Source: Octopus sinensis
Lineage: Eukaryota
Length of the DNA stretch: 37,191 nt
NCBI RefSeq assembly: GCF_006345805.1
Contig: NW_021835940.1
Span: 1-37,191 of the forward strand
Direction: 5' to 3'
Made by a program: the position numbers and the translations under genes. The notes beneath the pieces were generated by a model. That model was not told where the DNA came from, made no database searches, and worked only from the letters and a program-made list of their open reading frames with translations. Shown here in pieces: positions 3,671-36,330 of this stretch (the stretch's first letter is position 1; every line of letters starts with the position of its first letter).

Positions 3671-5049
3671 TTATTGTTCATCGGGGAGGTTTACTACATT
3701 AACTATATTGGTATCACGAGACTTCTTAAAATAAAAAGGGAGACTCCATAAAACACTCATCTTGCACAAAATCCCTCCCATGGACACAACAAAGTAGCAA
3801 CTCCCTACAAAATCAAAATGTTTGTCGAAATTCTTGTCTTGCCCAATCAAAGTCTGACTCACAAAAACCCCCACAGATGCGGAAAGCGCGAACATCAACG
3901 TCAAAAGTGAGTTCAAATCAAGCATTCGAGTCTGACCAAATGCAACCTTGGTGATACTGTCCACCAAGACATGCCAATAGGCCATCCCAAAGCCATAGAG
4001 GAAGGCATAAGTCATCTCAAACATCAACCACAGCCCTATACCTTCCCAGTAGTCGAAAGCACCAAATCTGGATATATAAAAGTCAGCAAACAGGCCAAAA
4101 TACACGTGGATAGAAAAGTGACAACAATGTCAAATTTCCTTGAATGTCCGACCACAGTGAACACAAGTCTTCAATAAAAAAACCACCCAACCTCGTAAAA
4201 AAGACCGAAATCCCCGTGAACCCCAAAGAGTAGCACTCTCCTCCAAGTTCCACTCAGAGGTTGCCATGTAGTGCGGAAACACAATTAAATTCGAAAAGAA
4301 ACACAGTCCGTAGAATATCGAGGACACAGACAAAACCGAAAAATAAATTTTGTCCCAAGTATTAGGATTTGAAGTTTGGGAAGGTTTTTTGAGAGAATTG
4401 GGGTCACTTTTGTCATAAAGCCCGGGTTTTCTTGTAGTCAAAATCTTGAAAATAATAAAAAACGGCGTGGTTGATAAGAGGAGGCCCCAATATACCAAAC
4501 ACGAGCCTAAGGCGGTAAGATCAAAGGACTACCAATGAGAGAAAACTTTTTTATCAAAGGAGCCGACAGAAATGCAAAGACGACAATTCCCAAAGAGTAC
4601 CCAGAGAAGGAAACAGCTCGATAAAACTTCTTTTTAGACTTGAAGTAAGAATCCGAAAAAATATTCGCCTCAAAGTGAATCAGGCCAATTCCCAGTCCCG
4701 AGAAGATTGCTGGGCAGAATATAAAGAATTTGTTGTTGACCGAAAGACATTGCTGGACGACCCCGCCTACGGAGATGAGGACCATTGCAATATTGGAGAA
4801 GGCATTAAATTTGTAGAAGGAGTGCAAACATGAGGCGAGGGAGTCTAAATTGGAAACTCAGTACAAACTTGATAGAAAAAATAGGAAAAAATTGAGTGAT
4901 GAAGCGTAGGAGAAGGTGTAGGGGGTGCTCAGGGTTAATTTGAGCCAATTAAGCTCGAGTAGTACGAAGTTCAGCATTAAGCCTCCAATTATAAATTGGA
5001 CATAAAAAATTCCAATCGTTGACCAAAATTTAAGTGTTTTTGTTGACAT
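3671..5049 (-). CDS. MFS transporter, monocarboxylate transporter (SLC16/MCT)-like (5 exons)
   Basis: Hydrophobic ORFs are joined by introns 4845-4868 (24 nt), 4507-4532 (26), 4169-4191 (23) and 4016-4041 (26). Motif GLGIGL…YFKSKKKFYRAVSFSGYSLG resembles MCT YF.KRR..A.G….G. One 1-nt frameshift near 4225 in a homopolymer is needed to restore ATLLGFTGISVFFTRL. Confidence 0.7.
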
Positions 5050-5405
5050 CACTTTGATAGGATTTTTTAAAAATAATCTTATTATTTTGGGATAACATTC
5101 ATTTATAAATTAATTAAAACATTAATATAAAATATAACAAAAATAATTCAATATAAAAATGATTATAAATAAATCAATCTCATTTAGGTTGCATTCTTTA
5201 TTAATCAATCATGATAAAATTTGTGGTAAACAATATCGACATTGTATCAATCAAAATTTCCTCAATTTTTCACCAATGACGTCAATCCCATTTTTGAAGA
5301 CTCCAGACAACTCCACTTTTCCGCAACGGTGAGTCTAGAAATCCCGTCTACGTGGATAAAAACGGTCCTTCAAGTTTTATTAACCCAACTTTTATTAATT
5401 AAAAT

Positions 5406-6782
5406 TTATTTGTTAATAAGGCTTTTTTGCACAATTGTACATAGCTGAAATAGTCTGCATAAATCGAGTATCCTTTGGCTTGTCCAGTCCATGAGAAATA
5501 GACTTTCTGATCAAAAACAGAAACTCATGTTTGCTGAGCTTTCCATCCTCTAAAATAAATCCTCTCCATCACCGTCATTATCCAAAACTGCGAAAAAAAT
5601 TTCCACCAAAACAGCAGAGAGTTCTCGACCAGTCACAATCTTGCTCAGTCTCTTAAGGGCCTCACGATCAAAGGGGACATCCGCGAGGTTATAAAAATCA
5701 AGAATCACAACAATGTCATCAATCTTGCTCAAAAACATGATGAAATGCGAATAATCCTCCCTTGACACAACCAGAGGAGGAGAATGCCCTTTCAGTCTGC
5801 GACCAATACGGGCTTTTCTTGCGGGAGAAATGTGAGCGTAGTGAGAAAACACACTCGCAAATCGAATAGCCGAGATAGAACTACCACCCTCAGCCAATCG
5901 ACGGAACTGGCATATTTCAGACCACATACCTCATGACGGGCCATTTCCTCGTGAAGTCTTGTAAGGAAAACTACAAACTGATCTAATTCAACTGTCCCGT
6001 CGAGAGACTCCCCAAATAAGTATCTCTCAATACAAGTGACCCCTTTCCTCACACTGGAGTGAGTTCCGTGACTTGTGTCTCTGTGTCGACTCCCAATAGA
6101 GGATCTCTCAATTACCAGTTCTCTCAGCTTTTTAAACTCAGAATGGGATATATTTCCATTCCCGTCCAAGTCCAGCATATTGAAACACACCTCCACGTGC
6201 CAAAGGGGAACTAAAATGACTTTTCTGACTCTAACTTGATATAAGAGCTGTCATTAGAAGGTAATCTCCAAAGGAAATCAATCCGCGAGAGAATATCTCA
6301 CCAAACACTGTTTCCGCGTTCTCACCGTGCTTCATTTGGGCCTCTGCCTTCTTAACTGTGCAAGTCCGGAAACAATCGAGGCCCAAATCTGCCAATTAAT
6401 GATTTTTGTGACTTTTAGGTTGCCTCACGCCTGGGGTGATGGCTCGGTAGAGGTCTTCTATGCTCATATAAACGACGTCGTCAACACGGAGGGTCGAGAA
6501 GTAACGGAATATTTTATCAGGAGTGGAATATGCTCTTATTCTGTTCTCATACTCCATTATCTTTCGATCTCTGAATGTCGGACCTGATTCTGAGGGTTTT
6601 CTATTATTTTTAGTGTTATAAAAATACTTTTCGTCGGGTTGGATGACGACTGTGCTTACTACTAGGGCACTCATAAGGACAATTGATTTTGAGGGGAACT
6701 GGGAGGGTGGTCGAATCCATTCTGGTAAAACAGAAAAGAGCCGCTTAGTCGTAATTAAACGTTGTATGAAATTATATATCAT
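5406..6782 (-). CDS. MICU1: Mitochondrial calcium uptake protein 1 (5 exons)
   Basis: [26 protein letters not shown] signature, EF-hand loops [12 protein letters not shown] and [12 protein letters not shown], and C-terminal GLDKPKD…AMYNCAK. Introns 6389-6412 (24 nt), 6211-6235 (25), 5907-5929 (23) and 5550-5572 (23) give one uninterrupted frame. Confidence 0.95.
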
Positions 6783-7023
6783 AACGTAAACATATGAACT
6801 ATTTATTTATTTTTATTATTGTTAAAATATATCATTTCAAAATATTGAAATTTAATTTGGTTTTGTGTATAAATTATCCTGTTGACATGATTTTCTACAA
6901 AGTCAAAGTTTGTGGGTTACTCAATTTGGGTAATGTCCCAAGAAATATCGATTCCTGTTACTAAACAGCATCAAAAATTTATATGTTCATTTAGTAATAG
7001 TAATTTTTATTTTTAAACATTTA

Positions 7024-11026: not shown

Positions 11027-11733
11027 TTAAAAATTCGACCTAAACCCTGAATTTCGAACTTCTACATGTGAATTGGACAACATTGTGACTATTTCGCAAA
11101 TATCGGAAAACTTGGATTCGAATTTATTCAACATTAAACCTGGATTCGTCCCGTAATACATCCTATCATTGGCAACAGATTTGTTTATAGAATTCCTCGA
11201 TAAACCTGAATGGGGTCTCATTTAAAAATGACTGCATCGTTGTATTATAGCAATAGACCAAATATTCTAAAATAAAGACCCATTCATTTTTATTAGGCTA
11301 TTTCAACTTTGTTAATGATCTCGCAATCGTTTCATTACAGAGCTAAACTATTCCCTATAAAATAATTTATCATTCCAGAAAATAACCTGTGATCTAGGGT
11401 TATTAGGTCTGCCGTGCATCTGTTAAATTTTAAACTTCTCGCGAAGAACCCGACTGTCGGTATTTTTGAATTCTGTCCCATTGTCCGGTTGTGGAATCTG
11501 ACATCACCATTAACATAAAAAAAAGACTTGAGATTTTTTGAAACCTCGACTCCTGACTTATTCATTAGTGCTCTGGCAAAAGCAAAACTAAGATAATTAT
11601 AATCATAAAACCGACTATAGAGGTCAATAACGGATAGAATTTATTTATATCCTCAAACCTTTTCAAATCAATAAATTCGATTTGAAAACGCAAATTTGAA
11701 GCAGAAGCCAAAACATTATTAGTTTCATCCACG
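11027..11733 (-). other. Unidentified coding-like segment abutting the GTCTAAAC insertion site
   Basis: ORFs 11335..11565 and 11027..11221, plus an open stretch TVDETNNVLASASNLRFQIEFIDLKRFEDINKFYPLLTSI. Could not be spliced unambiguously. Confidence 0.3.
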
Positions 11734-11764
11734 GTCTAAACCAGTGATTCTCAACCTTTTTTTG

Positions 11765-12441
11765 GTGTTATGGGCGTGTTTTTCGTCTCAAGGAGTGGGT
11801 GAACTATTTTTCACAGATGGAATATTGAATCCCAAGATGTACGTCGAAATTTTGGAAAATTGTTTAGTTCCGTCCATCAATAAATTAAAGCTAAGAAGCA
11901 ATTGGACGTTTCAACACGACAACGATCCCAAACATAAAGCTAAAATAACTACTGAATGGCTTAATAATAATGGAATAAATGTTCTGAAATGGCCTAGTCA
12001 ATCTCCTGACTTAAACCCAATTGAAAATTTATGGAAAACATTGAAAATAAAGGTAGGAAAACGAAGACCTAGAAATATGGTGGAGTTAAAAGCATTCTGC
12101 CGTGAGGAATGGAATAAAATTTCCAAAGAAGAATGCTTTAAATTAATAGATACATACAAAAGAAGATTAGAAGCAGTAATTGTTGCAAAAGGGAATGCAA
12201 CAAAATATTAATAAGGCATCGTGCCAACACTTATTGACCCTTAAATAACGTTAAAAATTAAAAAAATGTTTTTTCTTTGTCAATTATCGCTAATTTTAAA
12301 GATTTAAAATTATTTTCTAAATCAGAATCTTTTGAATTTTTCAAAAAAAATAATTAAAAGTCAAAATACTTCATATTTTATGGGCAAAAACGTAAAATAC
12401 TAAAATTTATTAAGTGGTGCCATGACTTTTTGGGCCCACTG
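11765..12441 (+). mobile_element. Tc1 element, 5'-truncated
   Basis: VLWACFS…QHDNDPKH…WPSQSPDLNPIENLW…KGNATKY (D34E spacing). Right TIR ends …GCCCACTG followed by TA. Inner direct repeat near 12220-12240. Confidence 0.92.
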
Positions 12442-12684
12442 TATATCAAGAATTAGAAAAATTGACTAACGATTTTGTTTAAAATTTTTCATCTAAATTT
12501 TTTTAAGAATTGGAAGCCCGCATAGGGTTAGGGTTAGTTGTTTAAGATTTGAGTTAGGGTTAGGAGCAGACGAAGCTTTTATATGGAATCTATAATTTTT
12601 TTCTATTTTCTAATGTAAATTTTAATTATTATCTCAATTTTAACCGATTTATTTACAATTTTAAATCATTATTTTTTAATGGTT

Positions 12685-14355
12685 TTTTAAAGAAAATTGG
12701 ACACGATTTCCCGAGGGATGAGCAAAAAGTGCTCACTCTCGAAAATGTGGAAGATGCTGCGTAGCATTAAAAACGCCGACAGTACAAACGAGGATGACAA
12801 CAATCACCAACTAGACCTAAACACTTTTATGAAACATTGCGTGAAGATAAGTCACAAGCCTTATAAAAAATCGGAATCCTCTTCAATTATTAAGGGTAAA
12901 CCGAAAAGGGAGCCTCCATCATTGTACTTCCTACCTCGAGATGTCGCTTTAGAAATTTTCCGACTAAAGAATACACGCTCCTGCGGACCAGACGGAATCC
13001 CAGCGATCATGCTCAAAAAATTGGGCGATGCAGCTATCTCTGCACTTACGAGTATTTACAACTACTCGTGCAACTTCAATTTCATTCCAACATTATGGAA
13101 ACTGTCGTGCATTCACCCAATCCTGAAGCCTGGAAAACCGAAGGAGCAACCTGGATCATACAGGCCACTGTTCCTTTTATGCGTCCAGGCACGAATTCTA
13201 GAGAGAATGGTGATGACTTTGATTCGCCCCCTCCTCCCAGAAGTCAGTTTCCAACGTGGATTCAAAGAGGGGCGATCAACTGTCACACACCTAAATGCTT
13301 TAATTAAGTTTATATCCGACAGTCTAAACAATAAACCTAAACAGGAAAAATCCATTGTCTGCTCGATCGACATAAAGAAGGCTTTCGATTCGGTGCCAAG
13401 GAAAATACTCACACAAAAGATCTATTCCTCAAATATTGATACGAATCTAAAACTATGGCTTGGGAATTTCCTGAGCGGCCGTCGGGGAAGGGCTTGCTGT
13501 GGAAACAGATCTTCCATATCGAGACTATTACCAAATGGGGTCCCTCAGGGTTCTCCACTATCTCCACTTTTATTCAATCTCATGATGAACGACATACCAC
13601 AGCCAGAAGGGGACAACGATCTGTTATTACTATATGCAGACGATATTATCGTCGCATCAAGGGATGTGAGCATAATAAAAGCAACGGATAGAATACAGGA
13701 TAACCTCAACAATCTGATTTCATGGCTATATAAAAACGAACTGGAAGCAAGTCCGGAAAAATCTATTTTGACTCTGTTTACGAAAAACAGAAGGCTTGGA
13801 AAGTCTCAATTGAAGCAAAGTTAGACGGGGAAATTATACCGCAGAGCAAAACCCAGAAGATTCTTGGAGTTACATTCGACACCTTTCTAACCTTTTCAAC
13901 CCACGTCGAAAATGTAGTTATGGCGGGTGCAAGAAAGGTTAACTTCCTGAATGCCTTCCTGAAGAACGCAGAAGAATGCAAAGGCCTATATGGCCTAAAC
14001 AACATATATAATCAATACTTGGAACCTACGATCGGCTATGCGTGCGGAATCTGGGGAACAAACTTAAGTGCAAACAATCAATCAAAAATCGACAAAATTC
14101 GGTTGAAAGCGGCAAACCTGCTAAATACTTTTTCCGATAAAGAGATTATCCCAAAAGCCTGGAACAACATCATAAAGTCATCTGCAATCCATCTACGAGA
14201 GGTTCGTCCTGAAAATCCCCATCCGTACCGAAAATGCGTCGGGACAACGGCGGAACATCGGGAGAGGCTGCGCGAACTGCTGAGGGAGGCTGGGATCACC
14301 TGAATTCTTCTTTCTTTTGGCTATGACGGTGGTTTTCTGGTTCAATAAATAAATA
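12685..14355 (+). mobile_element. 5'-truncated non-LTR retrotransposon (LINE, I/Jockey-group-like RT)
   Basis: SCGPDGI, YRPL.LL, QRGF…RST, DIKKAFDSV, GVPQGSPLSPLLF, YADD, and KILGVTFD after one frameshift near 13790-13820. (AAAT)n tail at 14343-14358. Candidate TSD AATGGTT at 12678-12684 and 14356-14362. Confidence 0.9.
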
Positions 14356-14589
14356 AATGGTTAACCAAAAATCAGATAGACTTCTCGATAATCAATAAAA
14401 ATTGTTGATGTCAGTGGGATGTTGGTTTTTTCGAGATCCCGCTTTTTTCAACATGTACCAAAATTATTAAAAATGAGTATAAAGTGAGACTTAGAAAAAA
14501 TTAACATGTATTTTGTATGGTAATATTGCTCAAAAATAAAATTTTGAAAGTATCCATTTATTCGCGTGTCCATTTATCCGACTGTGACA

Positions 14590-14765
14590 TCATATATCAC
14601 TTCAGCTTGTCTCTGCGAATCGTGTAAAATGTTCTGCTCATATCAATGCCCAATATTATGGTTACCATTTCAAATTTTTGGCATATGGTAGGAATAGATC
14701 TACCTCCTTATATTACATCGGCAATTGATCTTCCAAACCTGAATCCACTTTGGATGATTAATTTC
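14590..14765 (-). mobile_element. Non-LTR RT relic
   Basis: QSGFRFGRSIADVI…ILGIDMSRTFYTIRRDKL corresponds to the RT Q.GFR..RS and D…AFD.I motifs, with stops. Confidence 0.65.
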
Positions 14766-14833
14766 TTTTTATTTATAATAAAGTAGCTTTATTCAAATAA
14801 AATTGTATCAAATCGAAAGTAATTGGACGATCC

Positions 14834-15114
14834 ATGAAAAGTGAAAAAGTAGTCAAATATTGTTTAGTTTAAATTGCAATTTAAAAATATTAAATTCTTA
14901 TGGCCATCAGTTTGATTTGAAATGGATAGAATATCTTAAAAACATTTAGTTGTTCATTATACTAACTTTCGTAGGCAAAAAATATTCACCACACGAAGAG
15001 AGTTGGAGACGGGAAATATTTCGAAGCAATCTTGAACTAATTGATCAACACAACTTGAAGTACGAAAGAAGAGAGACTTCGTATGCTCTAGGCATCAATC
15101 AGTTCGCAGACATG
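14834..15114 (+). pseudogene. Cathepsin L-type propeptide (I29 inhibitor) domain without protease domain
   Basis: FDLKWIEYL…KKYSPHEESWRREIFRSNLELIDQHN…YALGINQFADM (ERFNIN-like and GNFD motifs). A 26-nt intron contains TACTAAC. The leader is disrupted and no C1A catalytic domain follows. Confidence 0.75.
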
Positions 15115-15319
15115 GTATCTCATCACTTCTTCTTTATAAAGTAAAAGTAAAACAGTAAAATTAAAAGAAAGCTGTAAATAAGAATTTAGCTTTGATTTAG
15201 AAATAACTTTATTGTTCAGATAGACCAGTCTGTTGACGAAATCGAGTAATGCAGGGTTTCGAGTGCAAGTCTAACATTTGTGGACCATTTCTGCGTGTTG
15301 ATATATGTTTTTGGTTTTA

Positions 15320-15395
15320 AACTTTGGTGCGAAGGAGATTAATGAGAATCCCTTGGACGTCTAAAATAACAGACATGAATATACTAAACGTGACT
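15320..15395 (+). mobile_element. RTE-like LINE C-terminal relic
   Basis: WC.RRLMRIPWTSKITDMNIL resembles the RTE W.RR.L.IPW…TN..VL motif. Confidence 0.55.
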
Positions 15396-15903
15396 ATTCA
15401 CTGATGACGGCGCCACTTCGTCAAACGTTTTAACACTGTAGATGTAAAAAATCTTCAACCGGAAGGACAGAGCACAAATACAAACTTGTATGTCACTCTG
15501 CCCGACACCTAATCACTGTGCAACCAACTTGTTTTTTGGTGGAAAAAAGTTCCACGTTAGAATATTTATACTGCATCATCCAAAAACATAATAATTTTTA
15601 GTTTCTGATGCCTCATTTCACATCTTACAATCATTTGAAAACAGTTTGTAACGTTGGAGAAGTAAATACAGGTAACTCATGCAGATTAATATTTTCAACA
15701 TTTGCTTGTTCACCACTGATATAGTACGTCGCCATCATTTTTTTTTGATTTTTGTCGAGTTGTTCGCAATTCAAGGTTAAAGACGATTAATATTCGCGAC
15801 CCACGCTGGCGATCATCAGTTGACATGTGATGTATTTTTGACATTAATTGCGACCATCAGTTTGACAGGTGATGTATTTTAATTGATGTATTTTGTATTA
15901 ATT

Positions 15904-16160
15904 TTTTTTTAATCATATTTTCATTATTAATAATGTCAGTTAATAAATTCAGAGAAGAGATTGATTTGAGAAATCAATTGAGGAAGCCCGCTGCCTGTAT
16001 GGAAAGCGAGTTCCCTCGGAGTATGGCTATTCCGATCCTTTGTCTTAGCCATACTCCTTCACGAGGATCATTTTCTTTGTGGCGAGCATTCTTCCGAGTT
16101 CGCGCAAGAACTCGGCAGTCGCTGGGCCAACAGCTCCTGATGACTCAGCCGCCCCCCCCT
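15904..16160 (-). mobile_element. CRE-like (RLE) non-LTR retrotransposon 3' end, copy A
   Basis: ESSGAVGPATAEFLRELGR…DPREGVWLRQRIGIAILRGNSLSI, a poly(A) tail, and a 13-bp TSD TTTTGTATTAATT at 15891-15903 and 16161-16173. Confidence 0.8.
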
Positions 16161-16593
16161 TTTTGTATTAATTAAAAAAAACTAATGACATGTTAACACT
16201 TAATCCATCGTTAAACTCTTTATATCTTCTAACATCAATAAGATCCGCTTGAATCTTTCATTGGGTTTTTCTGCAGTTACATGGTAATTAGAATCCGACA
16301 CCTAGGTATATTTTTTTTAAAATACTTTCAATGGTATGGCCAATTTACAAATTTCACAGTCTTTTATAATTTGTTTGATGATTGGACGTTTTACAGTGAA
16401 ATAGAATTCACTACACTTTTTCTGAAGCTTCGTATTCCCCAGTGGGATTCTTGGTGAATGGCGAATGCTAGTGTCCTCATCTCCATTTCATTGTCCAGAC
16501 AAATGACCAATTTGTGTTTTTGGTTATTCTCGTCCTTTAGATAAAGACTATGAGTTATGAGTCGCAAATATACCGATCATTAATAATAATAAA

Positions 16594-16786
16594 TTTTTTT
16601 TTTTTGAAGAAAAGATAATATAAATGAAAATAACTAGACAATGCAGTTATTTTGAACTGCCGGCGCATAAGATGGCCTGGCAGTTCCCTCGGACGATCGC
16701 CAACGAGACTCTTTGGAAAAGATGACGAGTCTCGTTGGGATCCTTGTTTCGTCTGGCAATCTTCGACCCCAGCCCCAGCCGATGAC
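16594..16786 (-). mobile_element. CRE-like non-LTR retrotransposon 3' end, copy B
   Basis: LGSKIARRNKDPNETRHLFQRVSLAIVRGNCQAIL* followed by a short UTR and a 12-nt poly(A). Confidence 0.75.
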
Positions 16787-17221
16787 TTTAAAATATTCAC
16801 GACAAAACATTCAGAATGAATTCAATCTATTATGACAAATAAATTGTTAATCCAGTCCTGGAATGCGGATAAACTGAATAACCGTTAGTGTTCATCCAGA
16901 TGCCGTCTTGTCCGAAAATTATTGGAATTGTGACTAAAGTTACATTATATTTGGTGACTTATCGAACTCGGTTCATTGAATCAGAACAGAGGAATTTTAG
17001 AAATTCCAGGTCAAATCTGGAAATTTCCGGTTTTGAGTGTTTAAGAACATTTCGATTGTTCTAATTGAACGAAATGTTTAAGCCAGGCTGTTGTATTTTC
17101 GGGATTTAAATTTTAGTGAAGACGCTAATTGGATTTACTGGCCGTCGCAATTTACGTGCATGTGATCTGTGATGGACCTCGCCAGGCTAAAGTAAGATAT
17201 TTGATGTCAGTCTTAATTTAG

Positions 17222-18258
17222 AAAATCTCTGATTTGAGTGTGAAGGACTGGCTTTCGTGCGATATTTCGTACGTCTGTAAAATAATAATCACAAAATTTG
17301 AAGATATAGTCAACATAAGGTTTAAATTTCAAGGTTGTATTTCAAGTGGAAATTACAAGTACATTGAACCGGAAATGATATGTTTCATGGGTCTAATCTA
17401 TGGATTACTGGGAGCTTACTTTTTATTTTCTGAAAAGTACCTGAATCAATGTATCGGGGTCTTTTTTCTTCAGTTGAGACATTTAATGGATATATACGAC
17501 GGAATGATCTATCGGCGACGAAAGAATGTTGAGTCTACTCCGATCTTTAAAAACATTGGGTTTTTTATCGACGCCACCTCAGACACTCTTGCCATCTCTT
17601 TGTCAGTAATCGCTATTCTCCTTGGCATCCTCAGAAGGCGCAGACAAAACTCGCCTTTGAAGACGTTTGTAACCTCAAAAAAGAAAATATCGTTTTTTGA
17701 AAGTCCTCTTAAATATATGAAACGTAATTTGACTCCTCTTTTACCAATCGGCTCTGAGGACCTGAGGGCAATAGATATTGTCCGTACTTTTGCACTGAGC
17801 TTCACCTTCGTGATAATTATGGGAATTTTTTGGACCACAACCCATGACATGTACTACTCAATATTTGACAGAGTAGTCGAATCTCCAGACGCAGTAATAT
17901 TTAATATTAACATCGCATAGACAGCCCTTGTTCTGAGACATTTCCACTTGAAAACGACTGCTTTTAAGTTTTTTGTTTATTCGCAAGTAAACCACCTCAA
18001 CTACATCCAAATATTTTTTTTCATGGTGATTGCCAGAAGGCAATGGGTGGGGCTAGTTGTGTGACTTTTAGGACTTTCTTCGAATTACCTATATTTGGTG
18101 GTTCATACTCTGCATAGTGTTCACACTCGTCATCAAATTTGACAGTCATTACGTAGGCTATTTTGAAACTATTTTAGTTAAATTCGCAAGTAAATCTAGT
18201 CCTAGAGAAGATGGTCAAAGTTTAATTGTTTACTTTTTCTTTAGTTTGTACAAAATAA
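17222..18258 (+). CDS. CDP-alcohol phosphatidyltransferase, ceramide phosphoethanolamine synthase (CPES)-like; 5' end unresolved
   Basis: DIYDGMIYR…GFFIDATSD fits the DxxDGxxAR…GxxxDxxxD motif, and SVK…I.P.MI…R…D..DG resembles CPES. Introns 17894-17920 (27 nt), 18047-18071 (25) and 18214-18244 (31) keep the frame to TAA 18256-18258. An upstream intron lies at 17192-17221 (30), but the preceding exon has a stop. Confidence 0.75.
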
Positions 18259-18970
18259 AACATTCTATACATATGGGCAATAGAGGAAACCAATTTGTAT
18301 GTATTCCTTGGTGTCCTTGAAGACAAGATAGCTTAAAAACGTCCGACCTGTCTGTTTGTTAGCTTAGCTATTGAAAAATTAGTATATTTTTAAGGAATCT
18401 TCGACGCTTTCAGCCATTTCGTCAATTCGGCGACGAATCGTATCATTACTCAAAGGTAAATTCCAGCCACATCAAAATGGTCGCACTACTTTTAAAATTT
18501 CAGATGGATTACGTCCCAATATATCTTGTAAAAAAACTGCGATAGAAGGTATTATTAACGATTCACCCGAAACATGGTAGAATTATTTTTAGCAACAATA
18601 TGGGCAATTTTGTAGTATGCAAGTAACCCATCTATGAAATAGGTTAAAAGGAATACTTTTTCGCGCGCAAGAGCATGAGAGTGATTAACTTTTGAAGAGT
18701 TGTAGGTTCATCAATCTTGTTTTTATATTTTGAAAATATTCAAGCGAAGATCCGACTAGATTTGGATGTTTAGTCCTCAAATGGTGTATTAATCTTGCTA
18801 ATTTCATTCAACTATTGGCCAAAGGAATTTTGCAGATTATGCAAAAAGGCCTAGATTTGTTTCCACTGGAAGGGATAAATCCATATTTCAGATATTCTTT
18901 ACGATAAATCAGAGGCGTACATGAATTACCACCAGACATGTGATTGACACGAGTATTTATAGGTATCAAA

Positions 18971-21114
18971 TAGAGGTGTACCGATTAATCGGCCGATAAT
19001 CGGTAATCGGCATATCGGCCACTTTGCCGATTATCGGTAATCGGCAAAATCTGCCGATTAATCGGTAATGTAATTATTTTCCGAAATACAATTGTATACA
19101 ACAAAACGTTAAAAAAACAAAATTTTTTTAAAAGAATCAATAATTAAAGTCTAATGTTTTTAAATTATATTGAAGGTACATCATCATTTCTCCATTCTCT
19201 GGAAAAAGTCCATTTCTTTTCGGTTGATATATATTTCCTCCAGTGCTGAAAACTCTTTCGCTTTCTACAGACGAAGCAGGAGCTGTTAAATATTTCAACG
19301 CCATTTTACTTAAGCGGGGAAATATATTCGTGAAGTTCTTCCACCACGTAAATATATTATCAGTTCGTGGTATTAAATCTAGCTCTAAATAATTTTGAAG
19401 TTCCGTCAAATAGCAATGTTGGTAATTTTTCTCCATAGACATAATTGGGTTAGAAGATGAAATTTGAGAAAATATTTCTTCAAATGTTAATGTTTCCAAA
19501 TTTTGTATTTTTGTCAAAGAAATGGCATTTTCAGATAACTTCGTGTCAGGAGAATTACTATCCTTCATATATTTAACAATCAATTTTTTAATTCTTTCAA
19601 TCATACAAGTCTTATGAAATCTTGTTTTAAATCTGGGATCCAATGTTGTTGTAATACATAGTGATTCGTTTTCAAAATAAAAGGTAAATCTTTTATCAAT
19701 AGAGGACATTAATTTTTCAATTGTTTCTTTGATTTCATAAAATTCACAAGATTCTTTTGCCTTTTCAAGAAATAAGAGAATTGTTTTGATTGAAGGAATA
19801 ATCATGGAAGCAGCAGCACTTCTTTTGCTCGCTTCAATTGTTATTTCCTCAAATAGTTTCAAAATTTTAACAATTTTTTCTGCTGTTATCCACTGTATAT
19901 CTGATAATATTGAAAGATTATTATCAATTGCATATGTTACGAGAGCTTTTCGTTGTTCGATCACTCTCGATAACATGTAATAAGTAGAATTCCATCTGAT
20001 ATTAATATCTTGTTTCAATTTATGGACAAGCAGATTTAATTGAGTTTGCAAGTTAGTTAATTTGCTAATTGCAAGTGCAGAATGATTAAAATGGCTTACA
20101 ATATCCCGACTAGTACTAATAATATTTTTGACATCTTCTTGAGAAAAAATTGATTCATTTATTGATAATTGAAGTGAATGCAAAAAACAAGATTGCGATT
20201 CGATTCCTGACTTTCTTACACCAGCAATCATGTTTGGGGCAGAATCTCTTAAAATTAAAAAAAATGATTTCTCTTTTCAGATTATATTCATCTAATACAT
20301 TAGTTATCTCGTCACAAATCTTAGAAGATGTATGAGAACCTTCCAAGGGAATAACTCGTAACAAAACTCTTTGTTGTGTAAATAAATCTGTTAACCAATG
20401 TCCGGTTATACAAAGAAAAGGTTTATTTGCTGTGGTAGCCGTCCAAATATCAATTGTCAGGGACAAAAATTTGATAGAATCGATATCATTTGTAATCGTT
20501 GCTTTAACATTTTTGAAAATTTCAAGAATAATATTTTCCGAAAAATATTTTCTGGAGGGAATACAATAATTTGGAATAATATGATTTAGTAATCGAATGA
20601 AACCAATATCACCAACAAATGAATAGGGTAATAAATTAACTGCAATCATTTCTCCAATTAATTTATGAATTATTTTTGATTTATGATCGTCAATATTCCA
20701 CATATTTTTCTTTTCTATAACTTGAGTAAGTGTTAACTGCTTCAATTGAGCAAAAGGTCGTTTTTTCTGTAACACAATTTGTTCTTCAGCTAATTGTTCA
20801 CTATGATAAACCCTAAGATGATTTATCATATTAGATGTTGTAAATGTCTTTCGCGTTCGTCCTCCTCTTGATATTAAAATATCGCATAATTTACATACGC
20901 AAAAAAACGAATTATCGTCTGAGACATCAAAAAATTTCCATACAACGCTCGACATGTTAAACAAAATATTTAATTACATTTTTAATAAAATAAATTACAT
21001 ATAAATATATTTTTATGTATAATATAATGGCCGATTAATCGGTATCGGTATCGGTGAAATTGGCCGATAATCGGTAATCGGCAAAATCCAAAAATGGTTA
21101 TCGGTGCATCACTA
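18971..21114 (-). mobile_element. Full-length hAT element (Ac/ZBED-like)
   Basis: Imperfect TIRs TAGAGGTGTACCGAT / ATCGGTGCATCACTA, 8-bp TSD GTATCAAA (18963-18970, 21115-21122), and multiple ATCGG/CCGAT subterminal repeats. Confidence 0.95.
19137..20955 (-). CDS. hAT transposase with BED finger (one homopolymer frameshift near 20260)
   Basis: VWKFF…CKLC…TTSNMINHL…H BED finger, TIDIWT, RDSAPNM after frame correction, CFLH, RWNS and ASSVESERVFS. Confidence 0.9.
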
Positions 21115-21282
21115 GTATCAAATGATAATGGTTAACTATTGTAATGTACTAATTACTGATAATAAAAAAATATTAAAAAAAATAATACCATGTACCAATT
21201 TTTTTTCCATGCACCGTTCGAGTATTTTCCATGTACCAAAAATGGTGCACATGCACCACGGTTGAGAATCACTGGTCTAAAC

Positions 21283-24026
21283 CAGACGTCACCAAACTAC
21301 GGCCCGCGGGCCGGATCCGGCCCGCGACAACATTTTATCCGGCCCGCGCACTATTTCGAGATATTCAATTAATACCTTAATAATTAACTTAAATAAAAAC
21401 TTTAATTAAAAAATTAAACTATTTTGCAAGATTTAATTTGAAAAAAAACTTATCAGCATTAACAGGGGTCACCAAACTTTTTGCACTCGCGGGCCGGATT
21501 GACCCCAACACAATGAACGCGGGCCGGAGCACGTGCATAGCACGGAGCAAAATATCAATCTCACTTCGGAGTTTATAAAATCTATTTAATACATTACCAC
21601 AGCTAAGCCATCTAACTGCAGTGTAATATGGTAAGTCAAAATATTCAGATCCAAAATCGTCAAGTAAAACTTTAAACTGACGGTGATTAAGTGAGCTCCC
21701 TCGAACAAAGTTTATTATGCGAATAACTGGATTCAACACACATAAAATATTAAGAGCCTTCGCACATAGTGCGTGCTGATGAAGGATGCAATGAATGAAC
21801 AAAGTGTTTGAAATATGTAATTCCTCCAATTTATTAGTTATTTGCCCAACTAGACCTTTTTAGAACCAGCCATATTCTTTGCCCCGTCAATCGTAACACA
21901 ACTCAGTTTCTCCCATTCAAGGTTATAGTCACTTATAGTTTGTTCCAATTCATCAAAAATATCTTTTCCAGTGGTTGTTCCATGAATAGAACAAACAGAT
22001 GCCAGTTCTTCAGTTATGGAAATATTCTCATCAACTCCACGAATAAAAATAAGAAGTTGCGATGTTCCCGAAATGTCAACTGACTCATCCAATGCAAGAG
22101 AATACCACAACATATTACTTGTCTTTTCACAAATTTGTAAATATATATTTTTTCCAAGCTCTTCAGTTCTCCGTGATACAGAACTCGCCGACAAACTTAT
22201 TCCATCAAATAAGGAAGAATTTAGTGGGCACAAACAATTAACTGCTTCAATAATGCAATTTTTGATATACATCCCATCACTAAAGGGTTTCCCGTGTTGT
22301 GAAATAATTTTCGTTATCTCGTATCCAGCTCTTGTTACATTTTCATTATTTTCAAAATTTTTTTTTATAAGGCCTTGTTGAATTTGTAAAGTGCGTTTCA
22401 GTGATTCAACTTTATCCTCACGTAGCTTTCCAGTGTACTTGGAATATATCGGAGCATGATTCGTTTCATAATGACGTCGAATGTTATACTCCTTCATAAC
22501 AGAGAGATGTTCGTGGCATATTAAACAATAAGCTTTCTGCTTTAATTCATCTTTCGCAAAAAATACTTCAATTCCCATAATTTATTGAATACACGGCATT
22601 CGCGGTCAACCTTTCTTTTCATATTAGACGCAACAAAGAAAAATTTAACGTTAATGCTGATAAGTTTTTTTTCAAATTAAATCTTGCAAAATAGTTTAAT
22701 TTTTTAATTAAAGTTTTTATTTAAGTTAATTATTAAGGTATTAATTGAATATCTCGAAATAGTGCGCGGGCCGGATAAAATGTTGTCGCGGGCCGGATCC
22801 GGCCCGCGGGCCGTAGTTTGGTGACGTCTGAGCATTAACGTTAAATTTTTCTTTGTTGCGTCTAATATGAAAAGAAAGGTTGACCGCGAATGCCGTGTAT
22901 TCAATAAATTATGGGAATTGAAGTATTTTTTGCGAAAGATGAATTAAAGCAGAAAGCTTATTGTTTAATATGCCACGAACATCTCTCTGTTATGAAGGAG
23001 TATAACATTCGACGTCATTATGAAACGAATCATGCTCCGATATATTCCAAGTACACTGGAAGCTACGTGAGGATAAAGTTGAATCACTGAAACGCACTTT
23101 ACAAATTCAACAAGGCCTTATAAAAAAAAATTTTGAAAATAATGAAAATGTAACAAGAGCTGGATACGAGATAACGAAAATTATTTCACAACACGGGAAA
23201 CCCTTTAGTGATGGGATGTATATCAAAAATTGCATTATTGAAGCAGTTAATTGTTTGTGCCCACTAAATTCTTCCTTATTTGATGGAATAAGTTTGTCGG
23301 CGAGTTCTGTATCACGGAGAACTGAAGAGCTTGGAAAAAATATATATTACAAATTTGTGAAAAGACAAGTAATATGTTGTGGTATTCTCTTGCATTGGAT
23401 GAGTCAGTTGACATTTCGGGAACATCGCAACTTCTTATTTTTATTCGTGGAGTTGATGAGAATATTTCCATAACTGAAGAACTGGCATCTGTTTGTTCTA
23501 TTCATGGAACAACCACTGGAAAAGATATTTTTGATGAATTGGAACAAACTATAAGTGACTATAACCTTGAATGGGAGAAACTGAGTTGTGTTACGATTGA
23601 CGGGGCAAAGAATATGGCTGGTTCTAAAAAGGGTCTAGTTGGGCAAATAACTAATAAATTGGAGGAATTACATATTTCAAACACTTTGTTCATTCATTGC
23701 ATCCTTCATCAGCACGCACTATGTGCGAAGGCTCTTAATATTTTATGTGTGTTGAATCCAGTTATTCGCATAATAAACTTTGTTCGAGGGAGCTCACTTA
23801 ATCACCGTCAGTTTAAAGTTTTACTTGACGATTTTGGATCTGAATATTTTGACTTACCATATTACACTGCAGTTAGATGGCTTAGCTGTGGTAATGTATT
23901 AAATAGATTTTATAAAACTCCGAAGTGAGATTGATATTTTGCTCCGTGCTATGCACGTGCTCCGGCCCGCGTTCATTGTGTTGGGGTCAATCCGGCCCGC
24001 GAGTGCAAAAAGTTTGGTGACCCCTG
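21283..24026 (+). mobile_element. Buster/SPIN (GTF2IRD2-like) hAT, internally deleted, outer copy
   Basis: TIRs CAGACGTCACCAAACT / AGTTTGGTGACCCCTG, TSD GTCTAAAC (21275-21282, 24027-24034) and GGCCCGC subterminal repeats. Transposase from ATG 22867 (MKRKVDRECRVF…CLIC…RRHYETNH…ALDESVD…IDGAKNM…HCILHQ…VRWLS) lacks the C-terminal third. Confidence 0.93.
21463..22830 (-). mobile_element. Inverted copy of the same Buster hAT nested in itself
   Basis: Same TIRs, same internal deletion and same length (~1368 bp). It has its own 8-bp TSD AGCATTAA (21455-21462, 22831-22838). Confidence 0.93.
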
Positions 24027-24094
24027 GTCTAAACCATTAATAAAACAGACTTGACTTTAAGTTGAAGAGAAAACTTACATCATACTCTGAAATT

Positions 24095-25688: not shown

Positions 25689-26264
25689 CTAGCTCGGCAG
25701 CTCGCTTCGCTCACCGCGACCTAGCTCCTGCGGAGGGCCTGTTTCATCAAACAACTATAAGTTTATGTAGATGTATAAAACTACCTGGTTTAATGTAACC
25801 CTATTCTATCGCCTGTTGATAAACGATGTTTGTCGTCCGTCCTTCCTTGGCATATATGAATAAATTTTCTCTTCTGCCTACCTCGAGCATCCCACATACA
25901 GCTGTCCATGTGAAAAGCACTCACTCTCTAAAAATAACCCAACTACCTTTAATGACTGTCCCTGGCCTTGTTTATTGTCATTGCAAAACTCATCCTCAAG
26001 GAAATTGCAGCCTTTTAAATCTAAATGGTAATTCATCAGAAATTATCGGAATTCGTGGAATATAAACAATCCTCACCTCTATACTTACTTTAATATCGTC
26101 GCCTCTATTACGTTAGCCATCAAATTTTGATAACTAACCTCGTTCCGTTGCATAATTTAGGTGGCGCAAGATTTCGTAATAAAACCACTGGAACGCCTAT
26201 CTTTAACTTTAAAAGATTCGATCGGCATTCCAGAGGGATCTAAGGAGTTTAAAATTCAATCCGG
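25689..26264 (-). mobile_element. Helitron 3'-terminal fragment with intact terminator
   Basis: Near-identical to 30313-30847 (helicase C-terminus). Ends with GCGGTGAGCGAAGCGAGCTGC stem-loop, then CGAGCTAG, then T. Confidence 0.9.
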
Positions 26265-30312: not shown

Positions 30313-33300
30313 CTAGCTCGGTTCATCAAACAACTATAAGTTTATGTAGATGTATAAAACTACCTGGTTTAATGTAACCCTATTCTATCGCCTGTTGATA
30401 AACGATGTTTGTCGTCCGTCCTTCCTTGGCATATATGAATAAATTTTCTCTTCTGCCTACCCTCGAGCATCCCACATACAGCTGTCCATGTGAAAAGCAC
30501 TCACTCTCTAAAAATAACCCAACTACCTTTAATGACTGTCCCTGGGCCTTGTTTATTGTCATTGCAAAACTCATCCTCAAAGGAAATTGCAGCCTTTTAA
30601 ATCTAAATGGTAATTCATCAGAAATTATCGGAATTCGTGGAATATAAACATCCTCACCTCTATACTTACCTGTTAATATCGTCGCCTCTATTACGTTAGC
30701 CATCAAATTTTTGATAACTAACCTCGTTCCGTTGCATAATTTAGGTGGCGCAAGATTTCGTAATAAAACCACTGGAACGCCTATCTTTAATTTTAAAAGA
30801 TGATTCGGCATTCCAGAGGGATCTAAGGAGTTTAAAAATTCAACCGGATATTCGCAGGCTCTTTCATGGTCCATAATAACGTCTACCGATTTATATATTC
30901 TTTCTTCTCCAGGGATTTTGATTAATAAATCTAAATTTATATTAAGTACCTCATCATTTAGCGGAGCTAATATAGCCCGTTCACGAAGCCAGTCGAAATT
31001 CCTGTAGTGTTCTGATAGTTCAGAATATACTGAACTGAATAATTCTTCTGCTGTATTCACATATATACATAATTCTTCCGGTAGACTGATTTTCTGATCC
31101 TGTATATCTGAAGTAATTGCCCCATTTCCAATATCTAAAAGGATATTTGGAAATATGCTATTGACGCCTTGTAAATGTGCACGTACATTTACATCTAAGC
31201 TTACCTTTTTGACGTGTGTCCACAGGTATGACGATTTGAGGCAGGCATTCAATTCATCCGCAGGCGTCCCTCTTTGAATAATTGGCAGAGTTTGTCTAAA
31301 ATCACCTGCCAATACAACTATTGCTCCCCAAACAACAGTTCCTCACAATCTTGATATCTCTATATGTTCTGTCGACTGCTTCGAATGCGCCCTTATGAGC
31401 CATTGTGCATTCATCCCAAACAATTAACCTAGAATTCATAATTCTATAACCCGCAACTGAATTTTTTTTACATTACAAACCGGTTCAGTATTGTAAGACA
31501 GTTCAAGGGAATGTTGAATGTTGAATGTGCTGTTCGACCTCCATCTAAAAGAGTTGCAGCAATTCCAGACGATGCAACTGCTAATGCTATTAGATTGTCG
31601 CTTCTCACCTTTGCTAACAATAAATTTAGAAGATAGGTCTTACCTGTACCACCTGGTGCATCAATAAAGATGATAGAACCATTTTCTTCTTGGATGACTC
31701 GGTTAATTTCTCTGTATATTTCCAACTGCCCAGGTAATAAGCTTTGTTCTCTTTCTTCCACAATTTTTTGAAGTTCTTCTAAATTATAATGCTCATCTAA
31801 AAAATTTATATTATGAAGATCACTGATTGTTAAACCAAATCACTTACACTCTTACCTACGACAGATATTAGCAATCTGTCTATCATGATTAATCCAATGT
31901 TGAAAATCTCTTCATCAAAAATCGATCTATTCTTCTCTCTTATATATCTTCGCACATGCTTTCTCGATGCCCTTCCCACAGTTGCTTAGGATTAGCTAAC
32001 CCACAATGGGCTAGCATCAAAGTATATAAATACCTTAGTCGCGATGGAGAATCTGCAATTGCGGCTTCTGTTAAAGTCTGATTCCAGAGGTTGTCATCCT
32101 CTAAAAGACCTAATTTAAACAGGCTTCTCTGTATGTTTCGCAGAGTACACCATTGACAGTCCGCAGATCAGTGAATGATTCTGGCCCTCGAATGTTGTGC
32201 AAAAGTAACCTAACACAATAACATTCAAAATTATTTGGATGCACGGTATATACTCTACCCATGCATCCGTACTTACAATATCGTTATGTCCTTTTTACTG
32301 GCTCTCCTCTTATCCTTCTTTTAAATTTCTTTCCGGCCACTTCCCACGTATAATATCTAGGAACATCAACATAATAAATTGTCTTCGCAAATTCATCAGT
32401 CCGACATAATTCAAAGTAGGCCATAAGCGTTGAATTTTTTGGATTCATAACTTGATTACGGGCAGTTTCTTCTCTAAAATATATCCTTTGTCCATTTTCC
32501 AAGTGGCACCGCTAAATGCATACTAATGGATATCTTTCATGAATCGGATATCCGAAAATTCTCCATGCTCCTTCATTACTGCAGATGAATCGTCCATGCT
32601 GAAAAAAGCTTGGCTCGTCACGCTGCTCAATTGTAAAAATTGCTTGATCAGACCCTTTATTAATGTATTTACATACATATTTAATTGATCTAATAGAATT
32701 ACAAAATTCCACATTAATATGTGCATCAAAAATCTTACATAACAGAGGATTATAAGGTACCACCCACCTGTTGTCAATTGTTATTTCATTTTCTTTTCCT
32801 TCGTGGAGAGTTGCAGTAATCCTCCTTCAGCTGTGCCCCTTCTTCGGTAAAGCGGAAATCCATTTTCACCTGTTTGCGTATTATATATTAAGTTTTTAGG
32901 GTACCCTTTAGAACACTTACCATTTCGCATACACGGTGATGATCGTATACATGCCACATGGACCATGTATCATATTTCTTTTTATGATCTCGTATAATTC
33001 TCTATCTCATTTGGATTTGGCAATTCTGCCCGTATGCAATCGTCTATTTCTGTAGCCCTAATTTAGTGACTAACCATAACAATATGTGTATATGTGGCAA
33101 ACCTCTTTTTTGCCACTCTACTGTATACATGTGGCATCTGTCTTTCCAAATATCTGTCCCTTGTGAGAAGATCCATCATCTTATCGACTTTCCGTTTAAA
33201 AACTCTCGCAATGATGTCTTGTCTATACTCTGCCTTTTGCCCTATAAATATGTTATCACTAATTTCTGGCCATTTTTGATTACATGTAAAAGTGATAAAC

Positions 33301-36300: not shown

Positions 36301-36330
36301 TAAATTTGAGATCGAAAACGTCTCATTTGA
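30313..36330 (-). mobile_element. Helitron with frameshifted RepHel (5' end not located)
   Basis: C..C.A…CC..GK zinc finger, FQMTSFG, YDALQYPL, LPSSFTGGPRYM, PDLFITFTCN (Rep motif 1), frameshifted EWQKRGLPHIH (HUH), KYVCKYINKG (Y2), PIF1 helicase [23 protein letters not shown] and FSHGQLYV. CTAG|T 3' end at 30313. Confidence 0.95.
34590..36160 (-). repeat. 69-bp coding tandem repeat (~22 units), 23-aa STPR-like
   Basis: Unit E(T/S)QEQREHRQEQDRM(G/A)(K/T)AISREQ is in frame with the RepHel N-terminus (ORF 34061..34777). Confidence 0.92.

What the first reader, a model, noticed from the sequence alone, without database searches (positions are those of the whole stretch)
11734..21282. 9.5-kb hAT-bounded 'pack' segment carrying host genes
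Seen: perfect 15-bp TIRs and an identical 8-bp TSD (GTCTAAAC) bracket 9.5 kb. Joining 11742-11766 to ~21187-21274 rebuilds a ~110-bp hAT MITE (…TTTTGGT|ACCATGTACC…). Enclosed are an intron-containing CPES-like lipid synthase gene, a cathepsin I29 fragment, a truncated Tc1, LINE/CRE pieces and a near-intact Ac-type hAT. Inference: genomic DNA was captured between MITE ends, giving a cargo-carrying composite that a Buster-type transposase could move in trans, as a route for gene duplication. Caveats: the left end keeps only ~25 bp and lacks the CATGYACC motifs, so the cargo may have entered after insertion. Two independent MITE halves could also share a preferred target sequence.
Basis: partly seen in the sequence, partly recalled or inferred. 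Interest (0 to 1): 0.75.

Follow-up and report, generated by a model that had tools for sequence, protein, structure and literature searches.

The report
Broken transposon holding whole copied gene
A cut-and-paste transposon at one site of this genome has most of its interior replaced by DNA from two other loci, including a whole intron-containing lipid-synthase gene; the DNA was likely copied in during break repair after the transposon had landed, and the unit is likely no longer mobile, so it is an unusually large example of a known route to gene duplication.

Summary
Real, and a known kind. The 15-bp TIRs and the 8-bp duplication GTCTAAAC are exact. Paralogous copies of the flanking repeat read straight across the site, so the 9.5 kb is one insertion. 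A second contig has the same junctions. There is no 110-bp MITE: the ends belong to a Buster-type hAT whose two-ended copies are 518-2949 bp; 27 bp of one end and about 740 bp of the other survive. About 2.7 kb is host DNA from two other loci: a cathepsin-L 5' piece without its start codon, and a segment of contig C8702 with a whole CPES-like gene (2.5% diverged), from which a 3.8-kb TRAM-like gene block is missing. The rest is nested transposons. Only one locus carries it, the short end has lost the family's subterminal repeats, and no intact partner transposase was found, so the cargo most likely entered in place by gap filling (0.6) rather than being carried in (0.25). Each contig's gene copy has a frame break; expression is untested. 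It works like an animal single-copy Pack-TIR, but larger and multi-source. The scan has noted other single gene captures elsewhere in this genome, not this locus.

The parts
11165..11741 (+). Older degenerate repeat (hAT-like by recall), left half; the target of the insertion; continues at 24035
   Evidence: 74-83% matches in six other contigs; four read through to the 24026-equivalent
11734..11741 (+). Target site duplication GTCTAAAC, left copy (nnnTAnnn type)
11742..11768 (-). Surviving 27 bp of the Buster-type hAT end at the transposase 3' side, TIR 11742-11756; last 4 nt (GTGT) shared with the Tc1 side
   Evidence: aligned to 16 other left ends
11769..12441 (+). 3' part of a Tc1 element with intact right end, sitting at a TA inside the next element
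   Evidence: DDE_3 E 4.5e-13; 1.6% from the closest of 10 copies compared; junctions
12442..14589 (.). Part of a multicopy TIR element ending ...CCGACTGTGACA (TGT...ACA termini, Ginger-like by recall), split by a LINE; its intact end abuts the cathepsin piece
   Evidence: joined form 12677-14356 in run X1
12685..14355 (+). 5'-truncated LINE with a 7-bp duplication AATGGTT
   Evidence: RVT_1 E 9.6e-34; ends
14590..15133 (+). Captured 5' piece of a cathepsin-L-like gene: upstream DNA and I29 exon (14977-15114); a 147-bp loss at 14896/14897 removes the start codon; cut inside the next intron
   Evidence: 2.1-3.9% from copies on C12604, C6410, C1651; I29 E 1.7e-13
15134..17015 (+). Captured intergenic DNA of C8702:445250-446113 (15134-15792, 16783-16824, 16918-17015), interrupted by repeats 15793-16782 and by a 93-bp filler 16825-16917 with no source found
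17016..18381 (+). Captured C8702:449910-451275 with a whole CPES-like gene (start 17074, end about 18283; four inferred introns of 24, 30, 27, 25 nt); 3.8 kb of the donor (TRAM-like gene and LINE piece) is missing at 17015/17016
   Evidence: 2.5% substitutions to the donor; catalytic motif intact
18382..18962 (-). Buster-type hAT interior: broken 5' part of its transposase gene; 1-nt overlap with the cargo at 18381
   Evidence: 95% to the 2283-bp copy on C8807; translation; junction
18971..21114 (-). Nested Ac-type hAT, near intact, own 8-bp duplication GTATCAAA (18963-18970, 21115-21122)
   Evidence: joined form 18962-21115 in run X1
21115..21274 (-). Buster-type hAT end at the transposase 5' side, with four CATGYACC motifs and TIR 21260-21274
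21275..21282 (+). Target site duplication GTCTAAAC, right copy
21283..24034 (.). A second, later Buster/SPIN-like insertion at the same target, with a third GTCTAAAC at 24027-24034; absent from contig C9499

Best explanation
One Buster-type hAT insertion, marked by a true 8-bp duplication, now encloses DNA from a cathepsin locus and from the CPES locus of contig C8702; that DNA was likely copied in after the element had landed, by template-switching repair of a break in the element, and the unit is likely immobile today. Shown: single target site, family ends, two donor loci, junctions with 0-4 nt of overlap, one locus in two contigs. Inferred: (1) a break inside the element or an abortive excision; (2) synthesis from the cathepsin locus, then the C8702 locus, then return to the element's own transposase 5' part at 18381/18382; (3) further insertions (TGT...ACA element, Tc1, LINE, Ac-type hAT) and deletions (147 bp, 3.8 kb, and the loss that joins nt 27 of the hAT to mid-Tc1), whose order relative to capture is not resolved. 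The duplicate gene sits behind DNA that lay upstream of the TRAM-like gene and is likely decaying.
For: Empty site read through in 4 of 6 paralogues. Same junctions in C9499, which differs in nested insertions. CPES-like gene found only in the window, C9499 and C8702; its donor neighbours are single-copy on C8702 among ordinary genes (coronin-like DUF1899, PDZ, Ssl1/TFIIH). Both hAT junctions are internal, not at a TIR, with 4 and 1 nt overlap. 2 of 19 left-end matches run into the Tc1, and both are this locus. Two other left ends break off at nt 26 and 34, one of them only in one of two contigs that share a flank, so ends erode after insertion. Known hATs need 100-200 bp of each end (10.1101/2022.09.16.508221, passage). 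Single-copy Pack-TIRs in animals mostly arise this way (PMC8277862, sections 7-9, 12).
Against: No allele with the hAT but without cargo was found at this site, so 'insertion first' is not shown. All parts are 1.6-4% from their closest sources, too alike to order the events. At least 67% of the element is gone and one breakpoint is 27 nt from the tip, against a median gap of 4.6% and internal breakpoints in PMC8277862; the filler is far longer than their 224-bp median and the donors are on other contigs, with no nearness shown. Both contigs come from one assembly.
Confidence: 0.6

Rival explanations
1. The composite was built elsewhere (template switch at a stalled fork, or two orphan ends bracketing a rearranged segment) and then transposed once as a unit to this site; the short end eroded later.
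For: Perfect TIRs and TSD; donors on other contigs; cargo and element diverge from their sources by similar amounts, so capture fell near the family's active time; orphan ends are common (9 left and 6 right flank 8-mers without a partner); cut-and-paste would leave no source copy.
Against: No second copy; no source fusion found; 6 kb or more of cargo is far above the family's largest two-ended copy (2949 bp); no long open frame in the family's 7 matches.
Confidence: 0.25
2. Another carrier delivered the block into a passive hAT, for example the TGT...ACA element reading past its end into the cathepsin locus, or an ordinary segmental insertion later trimmed by deletions.
For: The intact end of the TGT...ACA element abuts the cathepsin DNA at 14589/14590; the interior shows at least three deletions.
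Against: No carrier end, poly(A) or duplication at 18381; hAT sequence is lost rather than interrupted; none of the 6 cathepsin copies shown has that element at this place.
Confidence: 0.1
3. Assembly chimera of repeat-rich long reads.
For: In short-read contigs of run X1 one unbroken 1204-base piece carries donor-type letters across the gene, and no listed piece bridges a composite junction (tables cut, contigs show presence only).
Against: Two contigs with different nested insertions share all junctions base for base and share at least 23 substitutions against the donor in the coding region; flanks rejoin exactly at a TSD; junctions lie in unique DNA.
Confidence: 0.05

Closest known systems
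Single-copy Pack-TIRs (Pack-hAT) of animals, gap-filling model; PMC8277862 (abstract and sections 7, 8, 9, 10, 12, 14 read; supplements not read)
   Same: Both ends of one TIR element with TSD, filler at least 90% like a unique parent, short microhomology, single copy.
   Different: Filler 6.6 kb between the hAT parts (2.7 kb host DNA) against their 224-bp median and 5-kb cut-off; two donors; most of the element lost; breakpoint near the tip; secondary deletions.
Ssk-FB4 of Drosophila melanogaster (same paper, sections 9, 10, 12)
   Same: Near-complete intron-containing host gene inside a TIR element, far from the parent.
   Different: Ssk-FB4 has three loci with distinct TSDs, transcription and protein evidence; here one locus, frame breaks, no expression data, and a hAT rather than a MULE-like carrier.
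hAT capture of histone H3 in Pseudocercospora fijiensis; PMC6710886 (abstract only)
   Same: A hAT holding a copy of a housekeeping gene.
   Different: Amplified there to hundreds of copies; not amplified here.
Pack-MULEs of rice (recalled; size and multicopy share as quoted in PMC8277862)
   Same: Pieces of several loci fused between TIRs (recalled).
   Different: Plant Mutator elements, about 300-bp fillers, often multicopy.
Buster family of hAT elements; TSD consensus nnnTAnnn from PMC3517528 (passages)
   Same: 8-bp TSD, TA at positions 4-5 in 17 of 21 flank 8-mers, short TIR.
   Different: No intact transposase of this family found; family placement not tested by a tree.

Membership tests
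Pack-TIR (criteria of PMC8277862) | Both flanks are termini (10 bp or more) of the same TIR element | tested here: met
   27 bp and about 740 bp of one family, TSD and empty site
Pack-TIR (criteria of PMC8277862) | Internal DNA at least 90% identical to a unique parent | tested here: met
   C8702, 92-97%, sole donor for the CPES block; the cathepsin piece has several near-equal parents
Pack-TIR (criteria of PMC8277862) | Filler 100-5000 bp and 80-120% of the parent's length | tested here: not met
   6.6 kb between the hAT parts; about 2.2 kb kept of a 6.0-kb donor span. An operational filter of that survey, not a mechanistic feature
Pack-TIR (criteria of PMC8277862) | No TE within 100 bp of the parent copy | tested here: not met
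   The left donor breakpoint (C8702:445250) lies in an old repeat with 70-80% matches elsewhere; no piece of the hAT family matched the 40 kb fetched around the donor
Gap-filling Pack-TIR | Microhomology at a breakpoint | tested here: met
   4 nt at 11765-11768, 1 nt at 18381, 0-3 nt at 15133; 1 nt is chance level and no simulation was run
Gap-filling Pack-TIR | Cargo-free element at the same site in an allele or relative | not testable with these tools
   No relatives held; both contigs carry cargo
Gap-filling Pack-TIR | Donor near the element | tested here: inconclusive
   Donors are on other unplaced contigs; linkage unknown
Multicopy, mobile Pack-TIR (FoSTeST) | Several loci with distinct TSDs | tested here: not met
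   One site
MITE | A short (~110-bp) multicopy element of the rebuilt form | tested here: not met
   Shortest two-ended copy 518 bp; interior is transposase DNA
Buster family of hAT | 8-bp TSD with TA at positions 4-5 | tested here: met
   17 of 21 distinct flank 8-mers
Buster family of hAT | Transposase falls in the Buster clade | not tested
   Only a weak hAT dimerisation match, E 0.006, below the cut-off; no solved-structure match; no tree
CPES (ceramide phosphoethanolamine synthase) | Motif D(X)2DG(X)2(A/Y)R(X)8-16G(X)3D(X)3D (PMC9550178, passage) | tested here: met
   Regular-expression match in the window ORF; invariant in alignment A1; nearest Atlas clusters named CPES at 0.91 and 0.90
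CPES (ceramide phosphoethanolamine synthase) | Makes ceramide phosphoethanolamine | not testable with these tools
   Needs an enzyme assay

The most novel reading that the evidence does not exclude
A hAT assembled a 6-kb, two-locus cassette with a whole lipid-synthase gene behind a swapped upstream region, moved it as a unit, and the copy is an expressed, polymorphic new gene in a genome-reduced animal parasite; pairing between the shared Buster target sites of an old repeat brought the cathepsin donor and the landing site together.
Probability: 0.08. Interest if true: 0.65.

Novelty: new member of a known kind. Interest (0 to 1): 0.36.

Why it matters
It is a well-resolved natural record of DNA-level gene duplication inside a DNA transposon: target site, empty site, donors and junctions can all be read. 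It lies above the size range that the animal Pack-TIR survey examined and holds a whole gene, so such cases are probably undercounted. It does not show a vehicle that shuttles genes: one locus, an eroded end, frame breaks. It would matter more if the copy were expressed, or if a cargo-free allele or a second copy settled gap filling against transposition.

Tried and rejected
110-bp MITE: rejected. Two independent halves at a favoured 8-mer: rejected by the empty site and by 1 of 21 flanks. My first guess that 18382-18962 was a captured peptidase piece: rejected, it is the element's own transposase. Two word-index protein searches found no relative; the exhaustive search found 27 at E up to 0.001, none at 1e-10. 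Sequencing runs: no RNA holder listed, which says nothing on expression. Contigs of X1-X5: X1 shows the donor arrangement (joints 15792-16783 and 16824-16918 with donor letters); no listed piece bridges 11741/11768 or another composite junction, and none shows the empty allele; tables were cut and contigs cannot show absence, so presence/absence polymorphism stays open. The 93-bp filler 16825-16917 matched only this locus. Dating by divergence did not order the events. No right end was found within 20 kb of the similarly clipped left end on C10363. Paper searches for a like case gave the Pack-TIR survey and reviews; this is not a claim that no closer case is in print, and the unread supplements of PMC8277862 list the sizes of all cases.
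Full report
Observation. The sequence shows GTCTAAAC at 11734-11741, a 15-bp TIR at 11742-11756, its exact reverse complement at 21260-21274 and GTCTAAAC at 21275-21282. A third copy at 24027-24034 closes a later insertion. The listed contents are there: Tc1 DDE piece, LINE reverse transcriptase, cathepsin I29 exon, a CDP-alcohol phosphotransferase ORF and an Ac-type hAT.

Setting. The window is the whole of contig C12411 of G000. All DNA-level matches of these elements fell on small unplaced contigs, whereas the assembly also has very large contigs. Genes are dense, and the introns I inferred are 24-30 nt. Introns under 30 bp are reported in animals only for myxobolids and a dicyemid (PMC13644364, abstract). 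The window therefore likely comes from a small parasite genome assembled together with a larger host genome; earlier scan notes say the same. This is inference.

One insertion, not two halves. The left flank (11165-11741) and the DNA after 24034 are two halves of one older repeat. Of 6 paralogous copies fetched, 4 read straight across with a single 8-mer, 1 has its own insert at the same place and 1 ends before it. Contig C9499 matches window 1-24447 at 98.5-99.8%, has the same composite and lacks the second insertion 21283-24026; it also differs in three other nested insertions and one deletion, so two haplotypes (or two copies of a larger block) carry the composite. Among all family ends fetched there are 15 distinct left and 12 distinct right flank 8-mers, 6 shared, 21 in all; 17 of 21 have TA at positions 4-5, the Buster consensus (PMC3517528, passages), and GTCTAAAC occurs only here.

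The carrier. Pattern searches gave 19 left ends and 16 right ends. Two-ended copies measure 518, 529, 882, 884, 1753, 2038, 2283 and 2949 bp; none is about 110 bp. Their interior is hAT transposase DNA on the minus strand. In the window the element keeps 27 bp at one end and 18382-18962 plus 21115-21274 at the other; the Ac-type hAT 18971-21114 is nested in the latter with its own duplication. Against the 2283-bp copy, bases 28-1560 are gone. The lost part includes three GTACCA repeats just inside the TIR (one copy counted). Tol2, Tag1 and Ac need 100-200 bp of each end, so the present unit is likely not a substrate. A protein search scored 150 of 1752 candidates; the 7 matches at 67% identity or more lie in open frames of at most 194 aa, and three of the next matches compared were only 67-69% alike in DNA. 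Indel errors of the assembly could hide an intact copy.

The cargo. (a) 11769-14589 is a nest: a Tc1 3' part at a TA inside a multicopy TGT...ACA element, which a LINE splits. (b) 14590-15133 is the 5' piece of a cathepsin-L-like gene family, 2.1-3.9% from the closest copies; a 147-bp loss removes the start codon, and the piece ends in an intron. (c) 15134-18381 is collinear with C8702:445250-451275. C8702 is a 1.03-Mb contig where the gene lies among ordinary genes that are single-copy in the assembly, so it is the parent. The copy lacks 3.8 kb holding a TRAM-like gene (weak Atlas lead, 0.90; no Pfam match) and a LINE piece, which puts the CPES-like start 64 bp after DNA that preceded the TRAM-like gene. 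Host cargo is about 2.7 kb, the hAT's own DNA about 0.77 kb, the rest nested repeats. Overlaps at junctions: 4 nt (hAT/Tc1), 0-3 nt (cathepsin/C8702), none (3.8-kb loss), 1 nt (C8702/hAT).

The gene. With four inferred introns the parent reads 367 codons without a stop, near the 334-401 aa of the full-length relatives found. The CPES motif of PMC9550178 (passage) is intact and the nearest Atlas clusters are named CPES. The window's copy has a 2-base loss at codon 13; C9499 is intact there but has one-base losses in runs near codons 199 and 286; both share a 2-base gain near codon 355. The unshared breaks may be assembly errors. Changes shared by both contigs against the parent: 10 synonymous and 16 non-synonymous as the script counted them (3 of the 16 lie after the shared gain; one codon with two changes was skipped as a gap), pN/pS 0.48, p 0.055 against neutrality; about 0.5 is what one free and one constrained copy would give. 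Against simple decay: at the 7 shown sites covered by both X1 and X3, the 4 where the window differs from both are all synonymous; X3 depth is under 5 and the table is cut, and capture from an unsampled working allele would explain it equally.

Mechanism. Shown: one hAT insertion, replacement of most of its interior by DNA of two other loci, one locus only. Inferred: capture in place by template-switching repair (0.6), or assembly elsewhere and one jump (0.25). Divergences from sources are all 1.6-4% and cannot order the steps. The intact end of the TGT...ACA element against the cathepsin DNA, and the join of hAT base 27 to mid-Tc1, suggest that the original left junction was deleted later; two other left ends clipped at bases 26 and 34 show that this happens. 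So the composite may once have had a working end, which keeps the second reading alive.

An unexplained point. Five cathepsin loci fetched carry a 94-bp piece of the same old repeat, ending at the same target 8-mer (GTTTAAAC), about 740 bp upstream of the captured part. It is only 75-79% like the window's flank, so the loci are not copies of each other. No other fetched locus that was not picked for this repeat matched it. It may be chance, or a shared target may have paired the loci.

Comparison. The case works like the single-copy Pack-TIRs of PMC8277862 (208 of 370 are hAT; median filler 224 bp; microhomology median 2 bp), but fails two of that survey's filters (size, TE-free parent) and has lost far more of the element than their median. 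Whole-gene capture is known from Ssk-FB4 and from a fungal hAT (PMC6710886, abstract); both were amplified, this one was not. Earlier scan notes describe two other single gene captures in this genome (not checked); none covered this place.

Verdict. Real; a new, large member of a known kind; interest 0.36.

Noticed in passing
window 21283-24026: The near-perfect palindrome is a 1368-bp Buster/SPIN-like element (21463-22830) inserted in reverse into a copy of itself, with an 8-bp duplication AGCATTAA on both sides; absent from C9499.
   Followed up: partly
window 11734-11741; L099 (C8896); L111:5138-5145 (C12604): The same 8-mer site of the old repeat was hit twice in the window, holds another insert in C8896 and is where the repeat piece ends at the cathepsin loci: a likely insertion hot spot.
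   Followed up: partly
C8852:145359-147396 (L009, L055, L119): Another two-ended family copy with matching TSD in which about 90 bp of the element is replaced by a 997-bp foreign filler, partly like a neighbouring tandem array.
   Followed up: partly
C8807 (L041:6943-9225) and C12602 (L049:668-2420): A two-ended copy whose flanks do not match (ATTTAAGG, GCATAGAT), suggesting a rearrangement beside the element.
   Followed up: no
L103 (C9899), beyond the clipped element: A one-ended family copy runs directly into an ORF that looks like an innexin (by recall).
   Followed up: no
C12604, C8136, C6410, C1651, C12600, C8318: A multicopy cathepsin-L-like block, 90-99% alike over 1.6-5 kb, with tiny introns.
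   Followed up: partly
window 30380-36320: A Helitron (PIF1 helicase, Helitron_like_N) with a 69-bp tandem array coding 23-residue repeats at its 5' end; 25743-26264 repeats part of it.
   Followed up: no
window 24447: The window and C9499 part here; C9499 continues the old repeat, so the window has a further insertion or breakpoint.
   Followed up: no
window 11742-15900 against C9499: No substitution in 4159 aligned bases, against 10 in 3541 on the left flank and 10 in 2795 further right: possibly conversion or collapsed consensus.
   Followed up: no
window 3671-6806: Two compact host genes on the minus strand, by recall a major-facilitator transporter and a MICU1-like EF-hand protein; the ORF pieces tested had no Pfam match.
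   Followed up: no
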